A stretch of 64,000 bases of DNA, taken from the NCBI RefSeq assembly GCF_003991155.1, contig NZ_CP031293.1, one strand, 5' to 3'. Origin of the DNA: Escherichia coli (GTDB lineage Bacteria > Pseudomonadota > Gammaproteobacteria > Enterobacterales > Enterobacteriaceae). Below are positions 61,101-64,000 of the stretch, one piece after another. Made by a program: the position numbers. Numbering within the stretch: position 1 is the first letter of the stretch; each line of letters begins with the position of its first letter.

Positions 61101-64000
61101 GGAAATTCCCGCGCGAGTGGCTGAAATGAGCGAGCGTTTTAAGCTCAACGACGTTGAAGATGTTCTGCCGGAGTCATTGCCGCTCGGCATTCGCCAGCGG
61201 CTTTCGCTGGCGGTGGCGGTGATTCATCGCCCGGAGATGTTAATCCTCGATGAGCCTACTTCTGGTGTCGATCCGGTGGCGAGGGATATGTTCTGGCAGT
61301 TGATGGTCGATCTCTCGCGTCAGGACAAAGTGACTATCTTCATCTCCACTCACTTTATGAACGAAGCGGAACGTTGCGACCGCATCTCCCTGATGCACGC
61401 CGGAAAAGTGCTTGCCAGCGGTACACCGCAGGAGCTGGTTGAAAAACGCGGAGCCGCCAGTCTGGAAGAGGCATTTATCGCCTATTTGCAGGAAGCGGCA
61501 GGGCAGAGCAGCGAAGCCGAAGCGCCGCCCGTGATACACGACACCAGCCACGCCCCGCGTCAAGGATTTAGCCTGCGCCGTTTGTTTAGCTACAGCCGCC
61601 GCGAAGCACTGGAATTGCGCCGCGATCCGGTCCGTTCGACGCTGGCGCTGATGGGAACAGTGATCCTGATGCTGATAATGGGTTACGGCATCAGTATGGA
61701 TGTGGAAAATCTGCGCTTTGCGGTGCTTGATCGCGACCAGACCGTCAGTAGCCAGGCGTGGACGCTCAATCTCTCCGGTTCCCGTTACTTTATCGAGCAG
61801 CCGCCGCTCACCAGTTATGACGAGCTTGATCGCCGGATGCGTGCGGGCGATATCACCGTGGCTATTGAAATCCCACCCAATTTCGGGCGCGATATCGCGC
61901 GTGGTACGCCCGTGGAACTCGGTGTCTGGATCGACGGTGCGATGCCGAGTCGTGCCGAAACGGTAAAAGGTTACGTGCAGGCCATGCACCAGAGCTGGCT
62001 ACAGGATGTGGCGAGCCGACAATCCACACCCTCCAGCCAAAGCGGGCTGATGAACATTGAGACGCGCTATCGCTATAACCCGGACGTAAAAAGCCTGCCA
62101 GCGATTGTTCCGGCGGTGATCCCGCTTCTGCTGATGATGATCCCGTCAATGCTAAGCGCCCTTAGCGTGGTGCGGGAAAAAGAGCTAGGGTCGATTATCA
62201 ACCTTTACGTTACCCCCACCACCCGTAGCGAATTTTTACTTGGCAAACAGCTACCGTACATCGGGCTGGGAATGCTGAACTTTTTCCTGCTCTGCGCCCT
62301 GTCGGTGTTTGTGTTTGGCGTACCGCATAAAGGCAGTTTCCTGACGCTCACCCTGGCGGCGCTGCTGTATATCATCATTGCCACCGGAATGGGGCTGCTG
62401 ATCTCTACTTTTATGAAAAGCCAGATTGCCGCCATTTTTGGCACTGCGATCATCACGTTGATTCCGGCGACGCAGTTTTCCGGGATGATCGATCCGGTAG
62501 CTTCGCTGGAAGGTCCAGGACGTTGGATCGGCGAGGTTTACCCGACCAGTCATTTTCTGACTATCGCCCGCGGAACGTTCTCGAAGGCGCTGGATCTGAC
62601 TGATTTGTGGCAACTTTTTATCCCGTTGCTGATAGCCATCCCGCTGGTGATGGGCTTAAGCATCCTGCTGCTGAAAAAACAGGAGGGATGATGCGCCATT
62701 TACGCAATATTTTTAATCTGGGTATCAAAGAGTTGCGCAGTTTGCTCGGTGATAAAGCGATGCTGACGCTGATTGTCTTCTCGTTTACGGTGTCGGTGTA
62801 TTCGTCAGCGACCGTTACGCCAGGATCGTTGAACCTCGCGCCGATCGCCATTGCCGATATGGATCAATCGCAGTTATCGAACAGGATCGTTAACAGCTTC
62901 TATCGCCCGTGGTTTTTGCCACCGGAGATGATCACCGCCGATGAGATGGATGCCGGGCTGGACGCCGGACGCTATACCTTCGCGATAAATATTCCGCCTA
63001 ATTTTCAGCGTGATGTCCTCGCCGGACGCCAGCCAGATATTCAGGTGAACGTCGATGCCACGCGCATGAGCCAGGCATTTACCGGCAACGGGTATATCCA
63101 GAATATTATCAACGGTGAAGTGAACAGCTTTGTCGCGCGCTACCGTGATAACAGCGAACCGTTGGTATCGCTGGAAACCCGGATGCGCTTTAACCCGAAC
63201 CTCGATCCCGCGTGGTTTGGCGGGGTGATGGCGATCATCAACAACATTACCATGCTGGCGATTGTGTTGACCGGATCGGCACTGATCCGCGAGCGTGAAC
63301 ACGGCACGGTGGAACACTTACTGGTGATGCCGATAACGCCGTTTGAGATCATGATGGCGAAGGTCTGGTCGATGGGGCTGGTGGTGCTGGTGGTGTCGGG
63401 ATTATCGCTGGTACTGATGGTGAAAGGCGTGCTGGGCGTACCGATTGAAGGCTCGATCCCGCTGTTTATGCTGGGCGTGGCGCTGAGTCTGTTTGCCACC
63501 ACGTCAATCGGCATTTTTATGGGGACGATAGCGCGTTCGATGCCGCAACTGGGGCTGCTGGTGATTCTGGTGCTGCTGCCGCTGCAAATGCTTTCCGGTG
63601 GCTCCACGCCGCGCGAAAGTATGCCGCAGATGGTGCAGGACATTATGCTGACCATGCCGACGACACACTTTGTCAGCCTCGCGCAGGCCATTCTCTACCG
63701 TGGTGCCGGATTCGAAATCGTCTGGCCGCAGTTCCTGACGCTGATGGCAATTGGCGGCGCATTTTTCACCATCGCACTGCTGCGATTCAGGAAGACGATT
63801 GGGACAATGGCGTAAGGAAGGGAAACTTGACTTCATATTGTGATGTCATACTATTGATGTCATAAAGTGAAGTCATAAGGACATGCCATGAGAACCCAGG
63901 TACAGGCTTTACGGAAGAAACAAAAAAATACATTGGATCAAATATTTAAATCTCCTGTTCCTCAAGGGATTAAGTGGTCTGATATAGAGTCACTGGTTAA

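What the first reader, a model, noticed from the sequence alone, without database searches (positions are those of the whole stretch)
63816..64000. Promoter with direct repeats and a partial ORF after yhhJ
Downstream of yhhJ there is a strong sigma-70-like promoter (TTGACT-N17-TACTAT) overlapped by direct repeats of TGATGTCATA / GAAGTCATAA, followed by an ORF start (MRTQVQALRKKQKNTLDQIFKSPVPQGIKWSDIESLV). The repeats look like operator sites for an autoregulated small gene, possibly a toxin-antitoxin or prophage-remnant module. K-12, as I recall, has different genes (yhhI/rhsB) at this position.
Basis: inference. Interest (0 to 1): 0.3.

Follow-up and report, generated by a model that had tools for sequence, protein, structure and literature searches.

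The report
hicAB toxin-antitoxin promoter and start
The repeats and partial gene after yhhJ are the self-regulated promoter and first 37 codons of a HicA/HicB toxin-antitoxin operon that about 38% of complete E. coli genomes carry where K-12 has the RhsB element: ordinary and already annotated by homology, though this HicA clade lacks the usual catalytic histidine.

Summary
Window 63816-64000 holds a sigma-70-like promoter (TTGACT-N16-TACTAT, not N17), four TGAnnTCA boxes at 13/14/13-nt spacing, a Shine-Dalgarno sequence, and the first 37 codons of a 91-aa HicA-family gene.

An E. coli genome identical over the last 6.4 kb shows the rest: hicB (119 aa, overlapping hicA by 4 nt), a terminator hairpin, then convergent nikR. 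RefSeq already names both genes HicA/HicB.

The boxes are conserved upstream of hicA in 30 species, about 28-fold over the flanking DNA, mostly 13 nt apart and flanking the promoter. This fits HicB autorepression, as with the two operators of Yersinia pestis HicB3.

K-12 has rhsB-yhhH-yrhC-yhhI in place of this 817-bp cassette. No prophage context was found.

Two points are less routine. This HicA clade has an invariant Arg where characterised HicA toxins have the catalytic His. About 790 E. coli genomes carry an allele with a 14-bp promoter deletion and a stop codon after the hicA ATG.

Toxicity, RNase activity and HicB-box binding are inferred, not shown.

The parts
62691..63815 (+). yhhJ (ABC transporter permease), the upstream neighbour. 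Its stop codon lies 11 nt before the -35 hexamer. It is context, not part of the module.
   Evidence: PGAP annotation of the identical genome, mapped to window coordinates; ORF list.
63827..63832 (+). -35 hexamer TTGACT of the predicted hicAB promoter
   Evidence: Consensus scan. TTGACTTCA is conserved at this position in most Enterobacterales orthologous loci.
63828..63835 (+). Box 1, TGACTTCA. Predicted HicB (RHH) operator box overlapping the -35. It is the reverse complement of box 4.
63841..63848 (+). Box 2, TGATGTCA, in the promoter spacer. It is canonical in E. coli and degenerate in Citrobacter, Enterobacter and Klebsiella. One box-2/3 unit is lost in the 14-bp-deletion allele.
63849..63854 (+). 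-10 hexamer TACTAT (spacer 16 nt)
63855..63862 (+). Box 3, TGATGTCA, immediately downstream of the -10, covering the predicted transcription start
   Evidence: The start-site position is inferred from promoter geometry.
63868..63875 (+). Box 4, TGAAGTCA, 13 nt after box 3, in the predicted 5' leader
   Evidence: In strain BS-04 an ISAs1 element is inserted within this box.
63877..63881 (+). Shine-Dalgarno AAGGA, 6 nt before the start codon
   Evidence: Read from the sequence.
63888..64000 (+). hicA, codons 1-37 plus 2 nt of a 91-codon gene (HicA-family toxin, identical to WP_001260301.1). The gene, hicB (119 aa, 4-nt ATGA overlap) and a terminator hairpin continue beyond the window end.

Best explanation
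This is the 5' end of a chromosomal type II toxin-antitoxin operon, hicA-hicB. [quoted passage not shown]

Proposed mechanism:
1. One sigma-70 promoter (63827-63854) drives a bicistronic mRNA. hicB overlaps hicA by 4 nt, so the two are probably translationally coupled.
2. HicB binds HicA through its N-terminal HicB-fold domain and neutralises it.
3. HicB dimerises through its Arc-like RHH domain and binds the four TGAnnTCA boxes that cover the -35, the spacer, the start site and the leader. This represses its own promoter.
4. When HicB is depleted or HicA is in excess, repression is relieved and free HicA, a dsRBD-fold protein, arrests growth, presumably by cleaving RNA.

Shown here: the gene identities, the folds, the operon layout, the obligate hicA-hicB pairing, and the conservation and positioning of the boxes.

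Inferred only: HicB-box binding, autorepression, toxicity and RNase activity.
For: - Extension and annotation: a genome identical over 6401/6401 nt extends the window. It is annotated HicA toxin, HicB antitoxin, then convergent nikR.
- Family scores: Pfam HicA_toxin 37.7 bits (cut-off 27); HicB 56.8 bits (cut-off 21); weak Arc match.
- HicB fold: the model (pLDDT 85) hits HicB structures 6g26_B (probability 1.00), 6u0i, 4p78_A and 2dsy. Its C-terminus hits Arc (1b28) and AtaR. The profile aligns HicB 77-118 to Arc and AmrZ. PHROGs gives a 'toxin' family at 2e-26, a 'HicB-like antitoxin' family, and Arc-like repressor families.
- Pairing: a HicB homologue follows hicA directly in 77 of 80 species loci.
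- Boxes: 3.27 per 145-nt upstream region in 30 species against 0.115 in flanking DNA. Of 68 adjacent spacings, 43 are 13 nt and 14 are 26-27 nt. The boxes bracket the -35 and the post -10 region.
- Recognition strand: the HicB strand K79-Y85 is invariant in 26 orthologues. This matches the conservation of the box.
- Precedent: HicB antitoxins repress hicAB through palindromic operators (PMC10865869). The Y. pestis HicB3 tetramer binds two operators flanking its promoter, one over the -10 (PMC11594946).
- Toxin loss: about 790 E. coli genomes have hicA disabled at its start while HicB is unchanged in the examples read. A real toxin would be expected to decay this way.
Against: - The histidine at the start of strand beta2 that is essential in every characterised HicA (PMC6159526, PMC12297915, PMC11594946) is an invariant Arg here. 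GSR is found in 80/80 loci.
- No member of this clade was found to have been tested for toxicity or RNase activity.
- There is no sequence-level match to any solved HicA or HicB, and no NCBIfam model matches.
- The promoter is only a 9/12 consensus match.
- There is no terminator between yhhJ and the promoter, so read-through transcription from yhhJ cannot be excluded.
Confidence: 0.85

Rival explanations
1. The pair is HicAB-like in fold but HicA is not an RNase toxin. With Arg in place of the catalytic His, the 91-aa protein would be a non-catalytic RNA- or protein-binding partner, and the operon a small HicB-repressed regulatory module.
For: R51 replaces the canonical beta2 His in all 80 loci examined. 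No experimental toxicity data were found for the clade. PADLOC has no match.
Against: - His64, the predicted cross-strand neighbour of R51, and His67 are invariant in the 24-sequence alignment. The 80 loci were selected with the HRPHPSPD pattern, so they are no independent test.
- hicA is strictly coupled to hicB.
- The common E. coli allele disables hicA but keeps HicB.
- The clade's phage members are filed under a PHROG family described as 'toxin', a label that is annotation only.
Confidence: 0.1
2. The TGAnnTCA boxes are sites for a regulator other than HicB, such as a host factor or the neighbouring NikR, or they simply reflect reuse of the -35-like sequence TTGACTTCA.
For: No binding experiment exists. 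Box 1 is part of the -35. TCATAC (63846-51) resembles one half-site of the E. coli NikR operator GTATGA-N16-TCATAC, which I recall from memory.
Against: - The boxes travel with hicAB into genera where the neighbours differ. nikR is adjacent in only 5 of 80 loci.
- There is no GTATGA partner at the required distance.
- The boxes downstream of the -10 cannot be explained as -35 elements.
- The fixed 13-nt pairing argues for a dedicated multimeric binder, and the operon encodes one.
Confidence: 0.04
3. The module is a prophage or mobile-element remnant.
For: - The yhhJ-nikR gap is variable. K-12 has an Rhs element with an ISAs1-family transposase, and O157 has a sugar-utilisation island after hicB.
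- Relatives about 50% identical occur in Ralstonia and Burkholderia phages.
Against: - The cassette is 817 bp with no integrase, phage or transposase gene, and its breakpoints lie exactly at the yhhJ and nikR stop codons.
- It is chromosomal in all 2071 genomes and never on E. coli plasmids.
- It sits next to nikR also in Citrobacter, Enterobacter and Klebsiella. This makes hicAB the older state and the Rhs/ISAs1 content the newcomer.
- No enterobacterial phage carries it.
Confidence: 0.02

Closest known systems
Yersinia pestis HicA3-HicB3 (PDB 4P78/4P7D), a hicAB operon with an RHH-type HicB
   Same: - Gene order hicA then hicB, driven by a single upstream promoter.
- HicB has an N-terminal HicA-binding domain and a C-terminal RHH.
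- HicB3 binds two operators flanking the promoter, one over the -10 (PMC11594946).
   Different: - No detectable sequence similarity by phmmer or profile search.
- This HicA has a 29-residue N-terminal two-helix extension.
- It has Arg, not His, at the catalytic position (His28 in HicA3).
- The operator here is four 8-bp TGAnnTCA boxes in 13-nt register, not two 15-bp sites.
Burkholderia pseudomallei HicAB (PDB 6G26)
   Same: It is the best Foldseek match for the HicB model (probability 1.00) and is among the top HicA matches. Its HicB is also RHH-type and binds a palindrome overlapping the -10 (PMC11594946).
   Different: Sequence identity is 9-24% in the structural alignments. That HicA has the canonical Gly22/His24 site and a single palindromic operator.
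E. coli K-12 HicAB (hicA b4532, hicB b1438; PDB 6HPB)
   Different: - It is at a different locus.
- K-12 HicB has a helix-turn-helix domain, not an RHH, and the operon has two promoters (PMC11594946).
- Profile-profile comparison aligns only one helix.
- K-12 HicA has the catalytic His23, where this protein has Arg51.
Arc / MetJ-type ribbon-helix-helix repressors
   Same: HicB 77-118 aligns to Arc 6-47. The strand K-T-F-T-L-R-Y-P lies opposite Arc's M-P-Q-F-N-L-R-W-P. Both recognise short, nearly palindromic sites occupied by adjacent dimers.
   Different: Here the RHH is the C-terminal domain of an antitoxin. Site spacing is 13 nt.

Membership tests
HicAB type II toxin-antitoxin operon, class 4 of Gerdes 2024 (hicA-hicB, HicB with C-terminal RHH) | hicA lies upstream of hicB in one tightly linked bicistronic operon | tested here: met
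   hicA and hicB overlap by 4 nt (ATGA). A HicB homologue lies directly downstream of hicA in 77 of 80 species loci. There is one upstream promoter and one terminator hairpin after hicB.
HicAB type II toxin-antitoxin operon, class 4 of Gerdes 2024 (hicA-hicB, HicB with C-terminal RHH) | HicA belongs to Pfam HicA_toxin (PF07927) at the curated threshold | tested here: met
   37.7 bits against a cut-off of 27, residues 30-80. PGAP names it a HicA family toxin.
HicAB type II toxin-antitoxin operon, class 4 of Gerdes 2024 (hicA-hicB, HicB with C-terminal RHH) | [quoted passage not shown] | tested here: met
HicAB type II toxin-antitoxin operon, class 4 of Gerdes 2024 (hicA-hicB, HicB with C-terminal RHH) | HicB has an N-terminal HicB (partial RNase H-like) domain and matches Pfam HicB | tested here: met
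   PF05534 scores 56.8 bits against a cut-off of 21. The model has four strands and a long helix. Foldseek hits are 6g26_B, 6u0i, 4p78_A, 2dsy and 6g1c.
HicAB type II toxin-antitoxin operon, class 4 of Gerdes 2024 (hicA-hicB, HicB with C-terminal RHH) | [quoted passage not shown] | tested here: met
   - Arc-like Pfam match, below its threshold.
- Profile matches to Arc and AmrZ at E 0.03.
- Foldseek hits to Arc 1b28 (TM 0.67) and AtaR.
- PHROGs Arc-like repressor family at 1.3e-6.
HicAB type II toxin-antitoxin operon, class 4 of Gerdes 2024 (hicA-hicB, HicB with C-terminal RHH) | HicB binds palindromic operators in its own promoter and autorepresses | not testable with these tools
   Indirect support only. 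Four near-palindromic boxes overlap the promoter, are enriched 28-fold, and keep a fixed 13-nt spacing across 30 species.
HicAB type II toxin-antitoxin operon, class 4 of Gerdes 2024 (hicA-hicB, HicB with C-terminal RHH) | HicA arrests growth and HicB neutralises it | not testable with these tools
   Indirect support only. Natural alleles disable hicA but keep HicB identical in the examples read.
Experimentally characterised HicA RNases (E. coli K-12, Y. pestis, B. pseudomallei, S. pneumoniae, N. gonorrhoeae) | A conserved Gly in the beta1-beta2 turn followed by an essential catalytic His at the start of beta2 | tested here: not met
   - The Gly is present (G49, 80/80). The His position is Arg51 (80/80).
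- The position was assigned from the profile alignment to the solved HicA 9svk, GSR against GSH.
- It also fits the strand register of the model and a gapless colinear alignment with K-12 HicA, made by eye.
- I therefore file this protein in the HicA sequence and fold family, but not among the canonical-His RNases.
Experimentally characterised HicA RNases (E. coli K-12, Y. pestis, B. pseudomallei, S. pneumoniae, N. gonorrhoeae) | Ribosome-independent RNA cleavage | not testable with these tools

The most novel reading that the evidence does not exclude
This HicA belongs to a large clade, found in at least 353 species-level genomes and in Ralstonia and Burkholderia phages. The clade has an N-terminal two-helix extension. 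It has lost the canonical beta2 catalytic His (invariant Arg51) but carries an invariant His64 on the neighbouring strand, directly across the hairpin. If these proteins are still toxic RNases, the active-site histidine has moved to a different strand. That would be an alternative HicA catalytic arrangement that none of the mutational studies I could read covers. If they are not toxic, a widely annotated 'HicA toxin' clade is mislabelled.
Probability: 0.35. Interest if true: 0.4.

Novelty: new member of a known kind. Interest (0 to 1): 0.2.

Why it matters
For the genome scan this closes the finding. It is a routinely annotated HicAB toxin-antitoxin operon in a known variable gap of the E. coli chromosome. 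It is not a new system.

Three by-products may interest toxin-antitoxin specialists:
- A concrete, testable operator model: four TGAnnTCA boxes in 13-nt register, conserved across Enterobacterales.
- The observation that this widespread HicA clade lacks the histidine thought to be essential for HicA activity.
- A natural pair of alleles in E. coli (about 1280 intact, about 790 with hicA disabled at its start but HicB intact) that could serve as a ready-made comparison for any phenotype of the locus.

Tried and rejected
- NCBIfam gave no match for either protein.
- Sequence searches of the PDB with single proteins found no HicA or HicB. This was true even at E <= 10, where only a weak Arc match for HicB appeared. 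With profiles the only relevant matches were marginal: HicA 9svk at E 0.084, and Arc and AmrZ at 0.03.
- Profile-profile alignment to K-12 HicA aligned only the C-terminal helix of this HicA with the N-terminal helix of K-12 HicA (R-WLES-GV). I treat that as local helix similarity, not as evidence of permutation. K-12 HicB gave nothing.
- PADLOC found no defence-system model. Rfam found nothing meaningful in the operon.
- I considered a CRP site, as in K-12 hicAB P1. TGTGA at 63839 has no TCACA partner, so I rejected it by eye.
- I considered a NikR site. Only a TCATAC half-site is present, so I rejected it.
- K-12 retains no remnant of the cassette downstream of yhhJ.
- Literature searches for the locus, by protein accession and by hicAB with yhhJ, nikR or O157, found no study of it. 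The O157 paper on hicA/hicB expression does not say which locus it measured.
- Hou et al. 2023 on HicAB in ExPEC strain PPECC42, and Winter et al. 2018, are not held. I could not tell whether the ExPEC study concerns this locus.

Full report
**1. The observation**

The region reads as the first stage described, with small corrections.
- yhhJ ends with TAA at 63813-63815.
- TTGACT (63827-32) and TACTAT (63849-54) are separated by 16 nt, not 17. They are the only sigma-70 consensus match in 63500-64000. A 9/12 match is weak evidence on its own, since 0.6 are expected by chance.
- TGATGTCATA occurs at 63841-50 and 63855-64, and GAAGTCATAA at 63869-78. A fourth copy, TGACTTCATA at 63828-37, overlaps the -35.
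- The common core is TGAnnTCA, at 63828, 63841, 63855 and 63868 (spacing 13/14/13). Each box is nearly palindromic, so the region scores both as a direct repeat and as a 21-nt inverted repeat centred on the -10.
- The window as a whole has the chance number of TGANNTCA sites (19 observed, 17 +/- 4 expected). Four of them lie within 48 bp here.
- AAGGA (63877-81) precedes the ATG at 63888, and the frame gives the quoted 37-residue peptide.

**2. What lies beyond the window**

The last 401 nt match 2073 of 5426 complete E. coli genomes over at least 80% of their length. One of these genomes, NZ_AP021933.1, is identical to the window over the last 6401 nt, so I used it as the extension.
- The ORF runs to 91 aa (WP_001260301.1, 'type II toxin-antitoxin system HicA family toxin').
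- It overlaps by 4 nt a 119-aa ORF (WP_000593555.1, 'HicB family antitoxin').
- A 16-bp hairpin with a T-rich tail follows (z = -4.2). Then comes nikR, convergent.
- Rfam finds no RNA family in the operon.

**3. Identity of the proteins**

HicA:
- It passes Pfam HicA_toxin (37.7 bits, cut-off 27).
- Sequence searches of the PDB find nothing for the single protein. With a 24-sequence profile there is only a marginal hit to the solved HicA 9svk. This is therefore a divergent clade.
- The model (pLDDT 91) has two N-terminal helices followed by alpha-beta-beta-beta-alpha.

HicB:
- It passes Pfam HicB (56.8 bits, cut-off 21) and has a sub-threshold Arc match.
- The model (pLDDT 85) best matches B. 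pseudomallei, E. coli and Y. pestis HicB and TTHA0281. Its C-terminal 45 residues match Arc and AtaR.
- The profile aligns HicB 77-118 with Arc 6-47.
- PHROGs has full-length families for both proteins, described as 'toxin' and 'HicB-like antitoxin'.

In the scheme of Gerdes 2024 this is a class 4 hicAB operon, meaning hicA-hicB with an RHH-type HicB (PMC10865869). A HicB homologue immediately follows hicA in 77 of 80 species loci.

**4. The repeats as operator**

I took the 145 nt upstream of hicA in 30 species (Citrobacter, Enterobacter, Kosakonia, Trabulsiella, Photorhabdus, Xenorhabdus, Pectobacterium, Brenneria, Serratia, Pantoea, Pasteurellaceae and others).
- Boxes within one mismatch of TGACTTCA/TGAAGTCA occur 3.27 times per region, against 0.115 in the flanking DNA of the same loci.
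- Of 68 spacings between adjacent boxes, 43 are exactly 13 nt and 14 are 26-27 nt.
- The usual layout is box, 13 nt, box (this one is the -35, TTGACTTCA), 26 nt, box, 13 nt, box. One pair sits on the -35 and one pair sits just after the -10.
- E. coli has lost the upstream-most box, because the yhhJ stop codon abuts the -35. It has a canonical extra box in the spacer, giving four boxes in continuous register.
- The HicB strand K79-T-F-T-L-R-Y85 is invariant in 26 orthologues. It aligns with the Arc strand whose Gln9, Asn11 and Arg13 contact bases (my recollection of the Arc-operator structure). An invariant reading head matches an invariant box.

The closest experimental precedent is Y. pestis HicB3. 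It is a tetramer that binds two operators flanking PhicA3, and the main one overlaps the -10 (PMC11594946). Binding of this HicB to these boxes remains an inference.

**5. Genomic setting**

- K-12 shares the sequence up to the yhhJ stop, and again from 6 nt past the nikR stop. The 817-bp cassette is replaced there by 6.7 kb carrying rhsB, yhhH, yrhC and yhhI, and no remnant is left.
- The cassette is present in 2071 of 5426 complete E. coli genomes. It is always chromosomal.
- In O157:H7 a sugar-utilisation island follows hicB.
- hicAB also lies next to nikR in Citrobacter sedlakii, an Enterobacter, a Klebsiella MAG and K. aerogenes. hicAB is therefore probably the older occupant of this site.
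- In strain BS-04 an ISAs1 element is inserted inside box 4 and hicAB is gone.
- Nothing suggests a prophage. The only phage relatives are in Ralstonia and Burkholderia phages, at about 50% identity.

**6. Two less routine points**

(a) The catalytic residue. All characterised HicA toxins need a His at the start of beta2, after a conserved Gly (PMC6159526, PMC12297915, PMC11594946). Here the motif is G49-S50-R51.
- Arg is present in 24/24 aligned homologues and in 80/80 species loci.
- The assignment rests on three things: the profile alignment to 9svk (GSR opposite GSH), the strand register of the model, and a gapless alignment with K-12 HicA.
- That alignment sets VDVANGSNHLKLRFHGRRSVMPRHP against EIKEGRGSRCKFILNMSVACFHRPHP. 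It pairs H23 with R51, P36 with H64, and H38 with H67.
- H64 is invariant and, in the 51-56/59-64 hairpin, is the cross-strand neighbour of R51. The active-site His may therefore have moved to the next strand.
- The invariance of H64-P68 among the 80 loci is by construction, because the search pattern was HRPHPSPD. The invariance of R51 is not.

(b) Allelic state in E. coli.
- About 1280 genomes carry the intact allele seen in the window.
- About 790 genomes carry an allele like that of E. coli W. It lacks one 14-bp unit (TGATGTCATAnnnn, including the -10). Its ATG is followed directly by TAA.
- PGAP rescues a 76-aa product from a CTG codon, and there is no canonical in-frame start before Met58.
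- In E. coli W itself HicB is the identical protein.
- Losing the toxin gene while keeping the antitoxin is what one expects if HicA is really toxic.

**7. Verdict**

The object is an ordinary, homology-annotated HicAB module, so interest is low. I found no experimental study of this locus or clade in the library. One study of 'HicAB' in an ExPEC strain could not be read. The Arg-for-His clade feature is the only aspect that might repay experiments.

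Noticed in passing
L003 1484-1600 (E. coli W), equivalent to window 63816-63935: A common allele (about 790 of 5426 genomes) has a 14-bp deletion that removes one TGATGTCATA unit and the -10. Its hicA ATG is followed directly by TAA. PGAP annotates a 76-aa HicA from a CTG start. HicB is unchanged in E. coli W. This looks like a disabled toxin with the antitoxin retained.
   Followed up: partly
L087 2500-2560 (E. coli BS-04): An ISAs1-family element is inserted inside box 4 of the hicA promoter and hicAB is absent. It may be an intermediate between the hicAB state and the K-12 state, which carries yhhI (an ISAs1-family transposase) and RhsB.
   Followed up: partly
L004 3754-6715 (E. 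coli O157:H7 FRIK944): In O157:H7 the DNA after hicB is not nikR. It is an island encoding a class II aldolase, an HPr-like protein, an FGGY kinase and a PTS galactitol IIC subunit. The yhhJ-nikR gap therefore holds at least three alternative contents in E. coli.
   Followed up: no
L008 2430-2503 (Escherichia sp. E1V33): This locus has the same three-box, 14-bp-shorter promoter as E. coli W but an intact ATG-AGA start. The promoter deletion and the nonsense change are therefore separate events.
   Followed up: no
Protein hits P0053, P0059, P0061, P0079: Several HicA homologues of this clade (Pectobacterium, Leminorella, partial E. coli entries) are named 'hexulose-6-phosphate synthase' in NCBI and UniRef. 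This is evidently a propagated misannotation.
   Followed up: no
HicA residues 78-90 versus K-12 HicA residues 4-16: hhalign aligns the C-terminal helix of this HicA (VRDWLLSIGVK) with the N-terminal helix of K-12 HicA (FRRWLESQGVD) at 46% identity, and aligns nothing else. I took this as local helix-Gly-Val similarity within the dsRBD fold. A permutation-type relationship was not examined.
   Followed up: no
L001 6974-7008, about 1.0 kb beyond the window end: A perfect 16-bp AT-rich hairpin (TAACTGAACTTAATTT-TAT-AAATTAAGTTCAGTTA) lies between convergent hicB and nikR. It is probably a shared bidirectional terminator.
   Followed up: partly
L021 about 2390-2430 (Sodalis sp. dw_96): Three tandem copies of ACCTTAAATG lie immediately upstream of the hicA operator boxes.
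   Followed up: no
window 63739-63756: A terminator-like hairpin with a T run lies inside the yhhJ coding sequence, and none lies between the yhhJ stop and the hicA -35 (11 nt apart). Read-through from the yhiI-rbbA-yhhJ operon into hicAB is therefore possible.
   Followed up: no
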